Positions 35,401-38,400 of a stretch of DNA of 64,000 nucleotides are shown here, in pieces. How positions within the stretch are numbered: position 1 is the first letter of the stretch; each line of letters opens with the position of its first letter. The stretch covers positions 11,916 through 75,915 of the forward strand of contig CAZENT010000002.1 in NCBI GenBank assembly GCA_964513845.1, given 5' to 3'. Made by a program: the position numbers. This stretch comes from an uncultured Pseudomonadales bacterium. Lineage in GTDB: Bacteria > Patescibacteriota > Microgenomatia > UBA1400 > MFAQ01.

Positions 35401-38400
35401 ATATCTTGAAGTAATAATATTCCCAGAGTCAGTCTGCCCGAAAAGCTATTTAGCTCTCTCTTTTCAGATAATACTTTAACCACAACGATCGTACTGCTAA
35501 AAGTCATCGCAATCGCAAAAAGCACCGCCGAAAGAGAGCTAAAGCCGACGGCAAAGATGCCAAAAACAACATAAACAGCAATCAGCAAAAGAGCTTGCCC
35601 TAAAAAGATATACACCGCTTCCTTGCCCACTTTGCGTATTTCCGTCCAGTTCATTTCCAACCCTACCAGAAAAAGTAGCAAAGTCACTCCCAAAACGCCC
35701 AATGTTTCCAGCACTTCTACACTTGGAGAGCTGATCAGACCGGAAAGACCAATTACAAAGCCGGACAAAACATGGCCAATGATTGAAGGTAGGCCAAAAT
35801 AGCGGAAAACAATTCCGATTAATACAGCAATCACAAAAACCGCCACCAACTCAACGATAAACAAATCCATTACTTCATTCTAACGGGAAACCATCCCCTT
35901 AAGCAACACCTGGCAGTCGTCAGGCAATGGAGCGATAACCAATACTTTCTCCCCTGCAAAATTTTTGAACTCAATTCTCTCCGCATGTAAAAAATGGTGG
36001 CTCAAAAACTCTCTATCTCTCTTGGCCAGCTCCTTATTTAAATACTTCTCATCGGCAAAGATCGGCCAGCCCAAAAAAGACAAGTGCACTCTGATCTGAT
36101 GCGTTCTGCCGGTTTTTAAGTTTAGTCGCAAATACGTGAGTGCATTTTTCCAGTGTTCCGTGTTGTCGTAAACAAATCTGTCCAAAACTTTCCATGAAGT
36201 AATCGCCTTTTTACCTTCATAATGTACTTGCCATTTTTCTCGATCAAACAAGCTGCGTTTCAAAGGAAGAACCACCGTACCCTCAGCCGGCTCGACCCGT
36301 CCATGAACCAAAGCAACATACTCCTTGGTCAGTTTACGCAGTTTAAACAATTTCAAATAATATCGCAGAGCTTTTGGATTCTTGGCAATTACCAAACAAC
36401 CACTCGTTTCCTTATCCAGTCGATGGCAAAAACCGCTTCGTTGTCGAAAAACTTTATCATCATATTCGTCATTGCGAGAAGTGTACTCACGACGTGGCAA
36501 TCTATACAAATCACTTCCCTTGTATCTTTCCTCTATCCAGTCTTGAACTGTCGGAGCCGCCACCGAGTCCGCTCGATTTACCACCAAACTCAACGGCTTG
36601 TTAATTACCAGTGTTTCGTTATCTTCATAGAGAACTTCTATTTCCATTAACTCCCAGTATATACCCGCCTGCAGAAGCTAGAGCTTCAGCGATTGCGGGC
36701 AGGCGACACAAATCCTAATAATAAATAATTAATAACACCAAGTGATATCAGTACATCTGACAAATTAAAGCAAAAAGGCAAAAAGGGTAAACAAATATAA
36801 TCCCAAACACTTCCATAAATTATCCTACAGATTATATTTCCTAATCCCCCAATACCGATAAGGAGTAAATGCGTGCTCTTTCTATGGAATCTCACAAACT
36901 CGTATATTATCCAAATAAAAAATAGGCCGTAGGCTGAAATAGAAAAAATTGAGCCGAAACTTGCTCCCAACCCAAAAAACACTCCCCTATTCGCCATCCC
37001 AATATTTAGAGAACGAAAAACTGTCTGTAAAACTATATCCAATACAAGAATCAAAGCGGCGCCCCAGATCACTCTCCTGATTTCTTTTCCATTTTCTCGG
37101 CACAGCTCATACAGTACTCGGCTGTAGGTGTCACTGCCAGTCTATCGGTGTCGATCATCTTGCCGCAGCTAGCACAAATACCATATTTTCCCAATTTGAT
37201 CCTAGTCAATGTTTTTCTGATCGCGATTAACGACTTCGACACCTGAAGCCTCATAGCAAAAGATCTATCGTGCTCTACATTCTCCGCCACATCCGAGTCT
37301 ACTGAGTTGTCTGAATCGCGATTTCCAACCACAAAAGGATCAACTTTTTTTAACTCTTTTTTGGTTACGATCAATTTCTTTTTTTCACCTTTTAAATAAG
37401 CAACTAGAGGTTTGAGAAGATTTGAGGGAAAGGAGATTTTATTGTTTTTTTCCATGTTTTTGAATATTTTTTATATCTTCAGTCACTGTCCTGCCAGACC
37501 TAATATACACCAAAATCAGACCACCAACAAACAACACTCCTGACCATACCCCCACAGGCCAAGCATAGCTTCCTGTCAATACTTTTTCTAATAAATAAAG
37601 TAATCCCCACAAAGAAACTGAAAAACCGGAAATAAGACCGGAGCGTGCCGAAGTTTTATTATTGCGATACCAATCAAAAGTTCGGTATTTACTCTCAACG
37701 TTCCAAAAATAGATAAAGGCAATCAGACATAAAACAGCCAAAACCACAAACTGCCACATAGAAACGAGTAGCGAAAGACCGGCAAAAAACACTGCCGCCC
37801 CAGCGGTAATTCCCAGGGCCATCAGATCAAACCAGTCCACAAACCTTCCCTTGATCTTTCGCAGACATAGCCACAAACCGAGAGCAATTCCTGCGATCAC
37901 CCCGAAGCGATCTAGTCCCGGATAGTTCGTTAGCAGAAAAAGTCTAGGCAAGTGATTCCAAAACATGTTTAGGTTAAACAAAGCAAAAATTAATCTGCCC
38001 AAAATAAATCCCCAGAAGGCCGAAAGAACCACACTGTCTAAGATTGATCGATCTTCAAAATGAGATTCGCTGGTTTTTTTAAAAAATACAAACGACCCCC
38101 ACAAAAAAGCAAACACCGCCAAGGTTCCATATCCATAAATTGGAATATCGTTTACTCGAAAAATTGCATCGTTCATCTTCAAATATTGTATACTAAAAAA
38201 CACAATGCTTTCTATCGCCCACGGCGCAACAGGCGCCCTCATAGCCTCAAAAATTCCCAACCCTCTCGTAAGCATTCCCCTTGTTCTGCTTTCTCATTAC
38301 CTAGAAGACCGCGTTCCTCACTGGGATGTTGGCCAAGGCCTAACCAAACATAAAAAATCCAAAAAAGCCGCCTTTCTTGAGGAGTTATTTTTCGACTTTC

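What the first reader, a model, noticed from the sequence alone, without database searches (positions are those of the whole stretch)
36467..36513. Short dispersed repeat family (3 copies) with conserved arms, one copy inserted in-frame inside an RluA-family pseudouridine synthase gene
All three loci (36467-36513, 48489-48530, 52887-52969) share a 12-nt 5' arm CGTCATTGCGAG, a variable 16-nt core, and a (C/T)GGCAATCT 3' arm. Copies B and C then share CACAC. Copies A and C share TATACAAATCA. Copy C carries an extra 30-nt hairpin module (TTCCGGA-CCGGGA-TCCGGAA) between them, so the element is modular. Copy A lies inside the RluA-family CDS, where it encodes SDLYRLPRREYTSRNDEY in a loop that is about 20 residues longer than in typical RluA/RluD proteins. 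This resembles the in-frame palindromic elements known from Rickettsia. Copies B and C are intergenic. Copy C sits in the leader of the rpsF-ssb-rpsR operon, which could alternatively be part of a ribosomal-protein autoregulatory leader.
Basis: seen in the sequence. Interest (0 to 1): 0.6.

Follow-up and report, generated by a model that had tools for sequence, protein, structure and literature searches.

The report
CGTC-tagged hairpin repeats (Ssn-type) in CPR
The three repeats are real copies of a very widespread short DNA hairpin element, the kind recently shown in Neisseria to be the target of a small single-strand DNA nuclease; one copy adds about 13 residues to a surface loop of an RNA-modifying enzyme in this tiny-genome bacterium.

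Summary
CGTCATTGCGAG-N17-GGCAATCT occurs three times on the + strand and in 0 of 100 shuffles. The window is from a Collierbacteria-like CPR bacterium.

The element is a hairpin. It has a CGTC tag, a constant ATTGC/GCAAT outer stem, a conserved GAG/CGYG internal loop, a variable inner stem with compensatory changes, and a C after the palindrome.

Identical arms occur in more than 120 genome stretches from many phyla, including Rickettsia, and in 72 viral contigs. All three sites are empty in the closest relatives. Copy A adds 13 residues to a low-confidence RluA loop. Real genes elsewhere carry comparable in-frame copies.

In 8 loci a ~95-residue GIY-YIG gene sits beside these elements, bracketed on both sides with tags outward in six. 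That matches the published NTS/SRM–Ssn system (Chenal 2025) and the CGTC-REP superfamily (Di Nocera 2013: dRS3, RPE-4/-6).

It is a variant: the published SRM pattern matches 0 of 327 copies. No Ssn-type gene lies in the window.

Copy C is a head-to-tail dimer upstream of the rpsF −10 box, not a ribosomal-protein leader.

Verdict: known kind, new variant and host; moderate interest.

The parts
36467..36513 (+). Copy A. CGTC tag, ATTGC/GCAAT outer stem, inner hairpin GTG-TACT-CAC, tail CTATACAAATCA. Read antisense as residues D46-E61 (DLYRLPRREYTSRNDE) of RluA.
35880..36647 (-). Host gene of copy A: an RluA-family pseudouridine synthase. It is intact and keeps the HRLD catalytic motif.
   Evidence: PF00849; AlphaFold2: the insert is in a low-pLDDT loop between helices 34-41 and 58-70
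48489..48530 (+). Copy B. Same arms, inner hairpin GTG-TGTG-CAC, tail CTCACAC. It starts 7 nt after the EamA stop codon, and the tail ends 23 nt before the -35 box of the orf93 promoter.
48475..48486 (+). ACGCTAACAAAC, left member of an imperfect (10/12) direct repeat flanking the copy-B insert. The right member is at 48542-48553. Empty sites carry it once. Possible target duplication; a weak lead.
   Evidence: read directly from the sequence
48542..48553 (+). ACGCTAAAATAC, right member of the imperfect direct repeat around the copy-B insert.
52887..52928 (+). Copy C, unit 1. Same arms, inner hairpin TCG-TACT-CGA (compensatory relative to A and B), tail CTCACAC.
52932..52969 (+). Copy C, unit 2. 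A second hairpin of the NTS/dRS3 style: CATC tag, 8-bp stem ATTCCGGA/TCCGGAAT, C after the stem, then the tail CTATACAAATCA shared with copy A.
52981..53005 (-). Intrinsic terminator of the upstream small ORF (orf76). The copy-C dimer lies immediately downstream of it in the direction of transcription.
52877..52885 (-). Extended -10 box TGATATAAT of the rpsF promoter. It is conserved in relatives, and the copy-C dimer ends 1 nt upstream of it.
   Evidence: alignment by eye of seven relatives; inference

Best explanation
The three loci are copies of a short, non-autonomous DNA hairpin element. It belongs to the CGTC-tagged REP superfamily, which includes Neisseria dRS3/NTS and Rickettsia RPE-4/-6.

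Each unit has these parts, 5' to 3':
- an unpaired CGTC tag;
- a constant 5-bp outer stem, ATTGC/GCAAT;
- a conserved asymmetric internal loop, GAG opposite CGYG;
- a lineage-specific inner stem-loop;
- a C directly after the palindrome.

By analogy with the N. meningitidis NTS/SsnA pair, the CGTC strand probably folds when single-stranded. A small single-domain GIY-YIG nuclease (Ssn-type) would bind it and nick a few bases upstream. In other genomes the nuclease gene is itself bracketed by these elements, like an insertion sequence. The repeats therefore most likely spread as dependants of that gene.

In this genome the copies occupy permissive slots: a surface loop of RluA, and two gaps between the end of one transcription unit and the next promoter. 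They are most likely near-neutral passengers.

Shown here: the anatomy, covariation of the inner stem, presence/absence polymorphism, cross-phylum spread, in-frame tolerance, and the linkage of this family to GIY-YIG genes.

Inferred: ssDNA recognition and cleavage by an Ssn-type enzyme for this variant, and that such an enzyme, rather than some other route, disperses the copies.
For: **Real repeat.** Three matches against 0 in 100 shuffles.

**Hairpin with covariation.** On 24 distinct 36-nt copies, 93.4% of cells pair, against 25-55% when partners are slid. There are 40 double-change cells against 12±2.5 in shuffles, 0/500 reaching the observed value. The G10 partner is T or C only. Loops are mostly C-GNA-G triloops.

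**Spread.** Also 72 viral contigs, some with tandem arrays.

**Insertion polymorphism.**
- Site A is empty in L004, and most of the best-scoring orthologues are 242 aa and lack the segment in every one aligned.
- Site A is doubled in P0001.
- Site A is filled in another reading frame in L005.
- Sites B and C are empty in the closest relatives L130, L150 and L152.

**In-frame copies elsewhere.** They occur in genes confirmed by Pfam: TilS, GuaA, YchF, prepilin peptidase and a Mur ligase.

**GIY-YIG linkage.**
- Five of about 112 genome loci, picked only by the element, hold a ~95-aa GIY-YIG ORF with the elements next to it (PF01541). In four of them elements bracket it on both sides, tags outward; L056 starts at its contig end, so only the downstream side can be seen.
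- Three of three GIY-YIG homologues, picked by protein only, are flanked by the same ATTGCGAG..GGCAAT elements, clearly bracketed with tags outward in two.

**Published system.** SsnA binds the NTS (CGTCATTCCCGCG..GCGGGAATC) only as ssDNA and cuts upstream. The GTC before the palindrome and the C after it are the critical bases (PMC11893778). Both are present in all three window copies.

**Strand bias.** In Collierbacteria loci, 16 of 17 copies have the CGTC strand on the C-rich strand.
Against: - No Ssn-type GIY-YIG gene lies in the 64-kb window or in any CPR locus fetched. The one GIY-YIG ORF in the window (about 63595-63831, -) is closer to E. coli YhbQ/UPF0213. The YhbQ sequence was recalled from memory: 40% identity and 66.6 bits, against 34% and 33.5 bits to an element-flanked GIY-YIG. 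It is also conserved in relatives whose syntenic 20 kb carry no elements.
- The published degenerate SRM pattern matches 0 of 327 exact-arm copies, although it finds the NTS control.
- The stem is bipartite, not the continuous 8-9 bp described for CGTC-1 to CGTC-4.
- Whether the flanking GIY-YIG proteins fall in cd10448 could not be tested.
- No mechanism of copy dispersal by Ssn has been shown anywhere. Chenal et al. only note the resemblance to an insertion sequence.
- The three window copies differ from each other, so nothing shows recent activity in this genome.
- The cross-phylum strand bias is not significant: 84 against 65.
Confidence: 0.72

Rival explanations
1. The copies are classical REPs or REPINs mobilised by a REP-associated tyrosine (Y1/HUH) transposase, a RAYT.
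For: The element is a tagged hairpin of REP size that forms dimers and arrays. Y1_Tnp genes exist in related CPR loci: L005 19365-20036 and L058 1824-2474.
Against: Both RAYT genes are flanked by their own, unrelated hairpins: CCTTCAAGGAGAGTCCTTGAAGG and GATTACACCCCAAGGGTGTAATC. The tag here is CGTC, not GTAG. tblastn found Y1_Tnp relatives only in L005 and L058, none beside another element-bearing locus, and no transposase family recurred among ORFs next to the element in about 112 genome loci. Di Nocera 2013 found no RAYT link for CGTC REPs.
Confidence: 0.05
2. The copies are functional RNA elements: a 3' stabiliser or terminator for EamA (copy B) and an S6:S18 autoregulatory leader for rpsF (copy C).
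For: Copy B lies in sense just after a stop codon. Copy C lies upstream of rpsF-ssb-rpsR.
Against: - Single-sequence RNA folds are no better than shuffles on either strand, with z from +0.29 to -1.30.
- Rfam gives no S6/rpsF leader hit even at E<=10; the only leader-type hit is a sub-threshold L10 leader match, 23 bits against a 44-bit cut-off.
- Copy C lies between a terminator and the -10 box, so it is probably not in the rpsF mRNA. It is antisense to that gene.
- Both sites are empty in the closest relatives.
- Copies occur in both orientations inside genes.
- SsnA does not bind RNA.
Confidence: 0.05
3. The copies are host-beneficial ssDNA marks rather than selfish passengers. For example, sites where an Ssn-type nuclease trims incoming transforming ssDNA, as proposed for Neisseria NTS. 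This could matter in a CPR cell that depends on scavenged DNA.
For: Chenal 2025 shows that NTS/SsnA lowers integration of NTS-bearing DNA. The window has a cluster of pilin-like genes (D2). In Collierbacteria loci the CGTC strand is on the C-rich strand in 16 of 17 copies. The hairpin strand Ssn would cut is therefore not the strand exposed on the lagging-strand template.
Against: Most close relatives carry no copy in the same 20 kb, so the sites are dispensable. No Ssn-type gene was found here. Copies sit in arbitrary permissive slots, including a coding loop. The strand-bias sites are partly orthologous and so not independent.
Confidence: 0.15
4. The resemblance is chance, or the RluA segment is an ancestral coding feature unrelated to the intergenic copies.
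For: None beyond the short length of the motif.
Against: 0 of 100 shuffles match. 37-nt identity of 76-87% between copies. Orthologues at about 80-87% identity lack the segment. The same element occurs at the DNA level in L005 but in a different reading frame.
Confidence: 0.01

Closest known systems
NTS / Ssn-related motifs (SRM) with the GIY-YIG ssDNA nuclease SsnA (Chenal et al., Nat Commun 2025, PMC11893778)
   Same: Both start CGTCAT and end AATC, with a GTC tag before an AT-starting palindrome and a C straight after it. Both form directional hairpins of 20-50 nt. Both bracket a ~95-aa single-domain GIY-YIG gene (motif-gene-motif). Both are found in many phyla and are abundant in Rickettsia and Wolbachia-type symbionts.
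   Different: The stem sequence is ATTGC..GCAAT with a conserved internal loop and a variable inner stem, instead of the continuous ATTCCCGCG stem. The published SRM search pattern finds none of 327 copies. One of three copies here is coding, against about 2% in N. meningitidis. No ssn gene lies in the window. The paper does not mention CPR hosts. Unit 2 of copy C (ATTCCGGA..TCCGGAAT) is closer to the NTS stem type.
CGTC-tagged REP families CGTC-1 to CGTC-4, including Neisseria dRS3 and Rickettsia RPE-4/RPE-6 (Di Nocera et al., BMC Genomics 2013, PMC3733652); RPE-4/-6/-7 ATGAC motif (PMC3767692)
   Same: Unpaired CGTC tag, stems opening with A-T then T-A, a short 3' tail, dimers and clusters, in-frame copies inside conserved genes (pseudouridine synthase genes among them), and no RAYT partner. 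The ATGAC motif equals GTCAT. Identical arms occur in a Rickettsia endosymbiont chromosome (L032).
   Different: The described families have continuous 8-9-bp stems, 4-5-nt loops and a CCA-like tail. This element has a 5-bp outer stem, an internal loop, a 1-8-bp inner stem, often a GNA triloop, and a CT(C/A) tail. Direct homology to the RPE consensus sequences could not be tested.
GTAG-tagged REP/REPIN with RAYT (Y1 HUH transposase)
   Same: A tagged ssDNA hairpin, dimers and arrays (BIME-like), and a single-copy enzyme gene bracketed by its own repeats. It is a good model for how such a pair may behave.
   Different: The tag differs, and the enzyme fold differs (GIY-YIG rather than HUH/Y1). 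RAYT genes in related CPR loci carry other hairpins.
Rickettsia palindromic element RPE-1 and other in-frame MITE-like insertions
   Same: The element is inserted in frame into a solvent-exposed loop of an essential-type enzyme without disrupting it.
   Different: RPE-1 is 100-150 bp and unrelated in sequence. This unit is 37-47 nt.

Membership tests
CGTC-tagged REP superfamily (Di Nocera 2013) | Unpaired CGTC (or TGTC/CCTC) tetranucleotide at one end of the palindrome | tested here: met
   CGTC is exact in all three copies. Unit 2 of copy C has CATC.
CGTC-tagged REP superfamily (Di Nocera 2013) | Stem opens with complementary A and T residues in the first and second positions | tested here: met
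   ATTGC pairs with GCAAT, and ATTCCGGA with TCCGGAAT.
CGTC-tagged REP superfamily (Di Nocera 2013) | Continuous stem of 8-9 bp with a loop of 4-5 nt | tested here: not met
   The three main copies have a 5-bp outer stem, then a GAG/CGYG internal loop, then a 3-5-bp inner stem with a 4-nt loop. Only unit 2 of copy C has an 8-bp continuous stem, with a 6-nt loop.
CGTC-tagged REP superfamily (Di Nocera 2013) | Short unpaired 3' tail (consensus CCA) | tested here: inconclusive
   A tail is present but reads CTC/CTA. In Collierbacteria it extends to CTCAYAC or CTATAYAAAT.
CGTC-tagged REP superfamily (Di Nocera 2013) | Occurs as dimers or clusters and as in-frame intragenic copies; no RAYT partner | tested here: met
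   Copy C is a head-to-tail dimer. Tandem arrays occur in L219 and L178. In-frame copies occur in RluA, TilS, GuaA, YchF, a peptidase A24 and a Mur ligase. tblastn found Y1_Tnp relatives only in L005 and L058, each with its own hairpins, and no transposase family recurs next to the elements.
Ssn-related motif / NTS (Chenal 2025) | GTC directly 5' of the palindrome (critical for cleavage) and C directly 3' of it (critical for binding) | tested here: met
   (C)GTC-ATTGC...GCAAT-C in copies A, B and C.
Ssn-related motif / NTS (Chenal 2025) | Match to the published degenerate pattern HGTCWYN(0-2)YYVSBRHN(0-5)WNVSBRGN(0-2)RNCYNB | tested here: not met
   0 matches in the window and 0 of 327 exact-arm copies. 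The NTS positive control matched. The failure is at YY, because the stem is TGCG rather than TCCC.
Ssn-related motif / NTS (Chenal 2025) | The motif brackets a small single-domain GIY-YIG (ssn) gene on both sides | tested here: met
   Met for this element family in other genomes: L012, L072, L097 and L101 bracketed on both sides and L056 with only its downstream side visible, plus L244/L242, L251 and L261, chosen by protein. Not met in the window, where the only GIY-YIG ORF is YhbQ-like and unflanked.
Ssn-related motif / NTS (Chenal 2025) | The partner protein belongs to CDD family cd10448 | not testable with these tools
   Only Pfam PF01541 could be assigned. NCBIfam gave no specific model. 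The best PDB relative by sequence is the UPF0213 protein 1zg2 at E=0.04.
Ssn-related motif / NTS (Chenal 2025) | Bound and cut only as ssDNA, on one strand, a few nt upstream of the motif | not testable with these tools
   This needs EMSA and nuclease assays with a purified cognate protein.
Rickettsia palindromic elements RPE-4/-6/-7 | ATGAC (GTCAT) signature and in-frame insertion in exposed loops of conserved proteins | tested here: met
   GTCAT is present in every copy. The RluA insert lies in a low-pLDDT loop, residues 49-57 below 50. The signature comes from PMC3767692.
Rickettsia palindromic elements RPE-4/-6/-7 | Sequence homology to the RPE consensus | not tested
   No RPE consensus sequence was available. 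Identical arms do occur in Rickettsiales records L027, L032 and L053.
GTAG REP / REPIN-RAYT | GTAG tag and association with a Y1 (RAYT) transposase gene | tested here: not met
   The tag is CGTC. The RAYT genes in L005 and L058 carry other hairpins.
S6:S18 (rpsF) ribosomal-protein leader | Structured 5' UTR of rpsF, conserved among relatives and matching the Rfam model | tested here: not met
   No Rfam match to an S6/rpsF leader at gathering score or at E<=10; the region's best hit is a sub-threshold L10 leader match, 23 bits against 44. The copy is upstream of the TGATATAAT -10 box. It is absent from L130, L152, L133 and L135.

The most novel reading that the evidence does not exclude
The ATTGCGAG..GGCAAT hairpin may define a distinct and very widespread specificity class of Ssn-type GIY-YIG ssDNA nucleases that the published SRM search pattern misses.

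In Collierbacteria (CPR) the elements are kept almost exclusively with the strand an Ssn-type nuclease would cut on the C-rich strand, which is the leading-strand template. This would fit a nuclease active on ssDNA at replication forks, or on DNA taken up from outside, shaping where and in which orientation copies survive.

The elements would then be part of an ssDNA self/non-self or uptake-processing system in DNA-scavenging ultra-small bacteria, and would not be mere junk.
Probability: 0.15. Interest if true: 0.6.

Novelty: new variant of a known kind. Interest (0 to 1): 0.38.

Why it matters
The work ties an anonymous repeat in a CPR genome to a system whose enzyme was characterised only in 2025.

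- It shows that the published motif definition misses a family present in many phyla and in phage contigs.
- It adds CPR bacteria to the hosts in which such hairpins are tolerated in frame inside housekeeping enzymes, a feature until now best known from Rickettsia.
- For annotation, it explains recurrent spurious peptides such as PRND, LAMT, VIARS..WQS and RHCEE, and length differences between orthologues.
- For applications, each Ssn/motif pair is a potential sequence-specific ssDNA cutter, so a new specificity class has some tool value.

It does not reveal a new kind of biology.

Tried and rejected
- **Single-sequence RNA folding.** Folds of all copies on both strands were no better than shuffles. 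The structure only became clear from about 150 copies across genomes.
- **Rfam.** A gathering-score search of the whole window and an E<=10 search around rpsF found nothing relevant.
- **RAYT link.** The Y1 genes found are flanked by other hairpins.
- **Recalled link to 23S rRNA IVS four-helix-bundle protein genes.** tblastn with a consensus reconstructed from memory gave no hit in 1.9 Mb of element-bearing loci. Dropped.
- **De novo neighbour clustering.** Viral loci were dominated by one group of related phages. Genome loci gave the GIY-YIG cluster and no transposase family.
- **Replication-strand bias across phyla.** Not significant, 84 against 65. It is strong only within Collierbacteria loci.
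- **Literature search by sequence string.** It returned only primer coincidences.
- **DNA for the doubled insertion (P0001).** Not available.
- **Target-site duplication.** Only an imperfect 10/12 direct repeat at site B and a weaker one at site C. Not convincing.
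Full report
**Observation.** The three loci are as described. The composite pattern CGTCATTGCGAG-N17-GGCAATCT matches exactly at 36467, 48489 and 52887, all on the + strand, and in none of 100 dinucleotide-preserving shuffles (sequences; repeat family D4). B and C continue with CACAC. 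A and C share TCTATACAAATCA exactly. C carries an extra hairpin at 52932-52959.

Copy A lies inside the minus-strand CDS 35880-36647, an RluA-family pseudouridine synthase (PF00849). It is read in frame as D46-E61.

**Organism and the RluA insertion.** The best protein matches are from Candidatus Collierbacteria and Microgenomates. Most of the best-scoring orthologues, at about 80-87% identity, are 242 aa against 255 aa here. Every one of these that was aligned lacks the segment, reading ER(L/Q)GE(A/K/S)FFQY(D/T)DK.

- At the DNA level, L004 lacks 39 nt.
- P0001 carries the unit twice in tandem (LPRREYTPRND..LPRREDTPRND).
- The more distant L005 has an element in the same loop but with a 4-nt shorter centre, so its 5' half is read in another frame (EIATSSTPRND).
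- Yet another lineage has an unrelated GTATYAA-run repeat in the same loop (L268).

The loop is therefore a recurrent landing place. An AlphaFold2 model (mean pLDDT 84) puts the insert in a coil between helices 34-41 and 58-70, with residues 49-57 below pLDDT 50. The catalytic HRLD motif is intact.

**Anatomy.** Lining up about 150 copies shows:
- a constant 5' CGTC;
- a constant ATTGC/GCAAT stem;
- a conserved GAG opposite CG(T/C)G;
- a centre of 8-24 nt that is always a small hairpin, very often closed as C-GNA-G, sometimes with tandem G·A pairs.

On the 24 distinct copies with a 16-nt centre, 93.4% of cells pair, against 25-55% for slid partners. There are 40 double-change cells against 12±2.5 in shuffles, with 0/500 reaching the observed value. 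The partner of G10 is only T or C. The outer stem is fixed by the search pattern and so carries no information.

The window copies fit this scheme: GTG-TACT-CAC in A, GTG-TGTG-CAC in B and TCG-TACT-CGA in C. Single-sequence RNA folds were unremarkable.

Unit 2 of copy C, CATC-ATTCCGGA-CCGGGA-TCCGGAAT-CT, is a second hairpin of the continuous-stem type. Copy C is therefore a head-to-tail dimer.

**Distribution.** Hosts include Chloroflexota, Bacteroidota, Oscillospiraceae, Alpha-, Gamma- and Deltaproteobacteria, Rickettsiales (including a Rickettsia endosymbiont chromosome), Neisseriaceae, Atribacterota, Melainabacteria and several CPR groups. The element also occurs in 72 IMG/VR contigs. Some of these carry tandem arrays with a 41-46-nt period that end in an inverted copy.

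About a third of copies lie in stop-free stretches of at least 150 codons. Pfam confirms real in-frame hosts: TilS, GuaA, YchF, a prepilin peptidase and a Mur ligase. Insertions occur in both orientations.

**Sites B and C.** Forty-one syntenic loci from relatives were fetched through PrfA, and most carry no element at all.

*Site B.* In relatives, the EamA stop codon is followed within 3-5 nt by the -35 box of the next small ORF (L150, L138, L134). The window has about 70 extra nt there, including copy B. The promoter TTGACA-17-TATTAT begins at 48554. L005 has an element in the same slot, and its sister L146 has a GTAG-type REP instead.

*Site C.* Relatives read terminator-GTGG-TT(T/A)ACTT-TGATATAAT-start of rpsF. 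The window has the 83-nt dimer between GTGG and TGATATAAT. L131 keeps a degenerate single unit at the same place, with a compensatory G:C to A:T change in its inner stem. The closer relatives L130 and L152 are empty (terminator).

The copy therefore lies upstream of the -10 box, and rpsF is nearly leaderless. Rfam gives no S6/rpsF leader hit; the best hit in the region is a sub-threshold L10 leader match at 23 bits against a 44-bit cut-off. The leader alternative is rejected.

**What it is.** Di Nocera et al. 2013 defined a CGTC-tagged REP superfamily. Its stems open with AT, it has short tails, and it forms dimers and intragenic in-frame copies. It includes Neisseria dRS3 and Rickettsia RPE-4/-6, and no dedicated transposase was found for it. 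R. japonica RPE-4/-6/-7 are marked by ATGAC, which equals GTCAT.

I looked for a partner gene. RAYT genes in L005 and L058 are flanked by other hairpins. Clustering all ORFs near the element in about 112 genome loci gave no transposase family. It did give a cluster of ~95-aa GIY-YIG proteins. Five loci hold such a gene: L012, L056, L072, L097 and L101. In four of them the gene is bracketed within about 20-115 nt on both sides by the elements, with the CGTC tags pointing outward. L056 starts at its contig end, so only its downstream inverted copy can be seen (PF01541).

The reciprocal test also held. A profile of these proteins finds at least 8000 relatives. Three relatives chosen only by protein are all flanked by ATTGCGAG..GGCAAT units, clearly bracketed with tags outward in two.

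This is the architecture published by Chenal et al. 2025:
- the Neisseria NTS (CGTCATTCCCGCGMAVGCGGGAATCYRG) and the broader Ssn-related motifs flank ssnA, a 94-aa GIY-YIG nuclease;
- SsnA binds the hairpin only as ssDNA, on one strand, and cuts a few nt upstream;
- the GTC before the palindrome matters for cutting and the C after it for binding;
- in Neisseria the pair lowers integration of NTS-bearing transforming DNA.

All three window copies keep both critical features.

**How it differs.** The published degenerate SRM pattern finds the NTS control. It finds none of the window copies and none of 327 exact-arm copies. The stem is bipartite instead of 8-9 bp continuous. Neither key paper mentions CPR hosts, and no searchable paper prints this sequence in a bacterial repeat context.

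No Ssn-type gene lies in the window. Its one GIY-YIG ORF (about 63595-63831, minus strand) is closer to E. coli YhbQ than to the element-flanked proteins. The YhbQ sequence was recalled from memory. The ORF is also conserved in relatives whose syntenic 20 kb carry no elements. Membership of the partner proteins in cd10448 could not be tested.

**Mechanism and confidence.** Shown here:
- the hairpin anatomy with covariation;
- presence/absence polymorphism at all three sites;
- recurrent use of the same slots;
- cross-phylum and phage occurrence;
- in-frame tolerance;
- linkage of this family to small GIY-YIG genes.

Inferred from the Neisseria work: the CGTC strand is bound as ssDNA and nicked upstream by a cognate Ssn-type enzyme. 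Speculative: that this enzyme disperses the copies. No mechanism of spread has been demonstrated for any Ssn/SRM pair.

One possibly relevant observation concerns strand. The whole window has negative GC skew on the + strand. In Collierbacteria loci, 16 of 17 copies have the CGTC strand on the C-rich strand (binomial p about 3e-4, although the sites are partly orthologous). Across phyla the bias is weak, 84 against 65.

**Verdict.** This is a real repeat family, correctly read by the first-stage reader as RPE-like. It is a bipartite-stem variant of the CGTC-REP/Ssn-related motif class, here in a CPR genome, with one in-frame copy in RluA. It is of moderate interest and is not a new kind of system.

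Noticed in passing
window 53343-53365; L268 3128-3162; L131 and L152 just after the ychF stop: A second short repeat made of GTATYAA heptamer runs (for example CGTATTAAGTATCAAGTATCAAGTATTAAGTATGG). It sits after the ychF stop codon here and in relatives. In another Collierbacteria lineage it is read in frame (RIKYQVSSIKYG) in the very same RluA loop that hosts copy A.
   Followed up: partly
L005 19320-20075; L058 1745-2520: RAYT-type Y1 transposase genes in related CPR loci are flanked by their own hairpins (CCTTCAAGGAGAGTCCTTGAAGG and GATTACACCCCAAGGGTGTAATC). In L005, two copies of that hairpin lie in frame inside the RAYT gene itself.
   Followed up: partly
L146, about 9165-9200 (downstream of EamA): A GTAG-tagged REP (GTAGGGGCGGACCCCCGTGTCCGCCC) occupies the slot where the sister genome L005 has the CGTC element. 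The slot accepts different repeat classes.
   Followed up: no
window 48554-48990 (orf93) and 53006-53330 (orf76); same slots in L130-L153: The gaps EamA|rpmE and ychF|rpsF hold a different small ORF in almost every relative, mostly membrane-like. Each has its own promoter and terminator. The gaps range from 26 nt to about 1.3 kb. These look like hypervariable cassette slots.
   Followed up: partly
window 52812-52885 (-): rpsF appears leaderless or nearly so. An extended -10 box, TGATATAAT, lies 9 nt before an in-frame ATG, with no recognisable -35 box. The arrangement is conserved in relatives.
   Followed up: partly
window 11515-16680: Five neighbouring genes share a 5' end that encodes a prepilin-type N-terminus (MNRPNKGFTLMELLIV, read by eye from repeat family D2). 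This looks like a cluster of type IV pilin-like genes.
   Followed up: no
window about 63595-63831 (-): A small single-domain GIY-YIG ORF (PF01541), closer to E. coli YhbQ/UPF0213 than to the element-flanked GIY-YIG proteins. It follows cysS in the relative L131, is conserved in L135, L137 and L138, and no elements flank it.
   Followed up: partly
window 48475-48486 and 48542-48553: Imperfect direct repeats ACGCTAACAAAC and ACGCTAAAATAC (10/12) flank the copy-B insert. Empty sites in relatives carry the sequence once. This may be a target-site duplication. A weaker pair flanks copy C (CTATTATATCA and CTATACAAATCA).
   Followed up: partly
window 1-64000; L005, L026, L131, L133, L146: GC skew is strongly negative along the whole + strand (-0.13 to -0.24). 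In Collierbacteria loci, 16 of 17 elements have the CGTC strand on the C-rich strand.
   Followed up: partly
L219 691-843 and 3349-3503; L178 6478-6599 and 8598-8752: IMG/VR contigs carry tandem arrays of the element with a 41-46-nt period, closed by an inverted copy of a sister subfamily (GAAGCAATC arm). A portal-like ORF in L214 carries an in-frame copy (PSRVIARSAATKQSP).
   Followed up: partly
window 12106-12232 and 39854-39914: Degenerate 12-nt-period GT-rich repeats (GGTGTTGGNGTA-like) occur at two distant places, probably as low-complexity coding repeats on the opposite strand.
   Followed up: no
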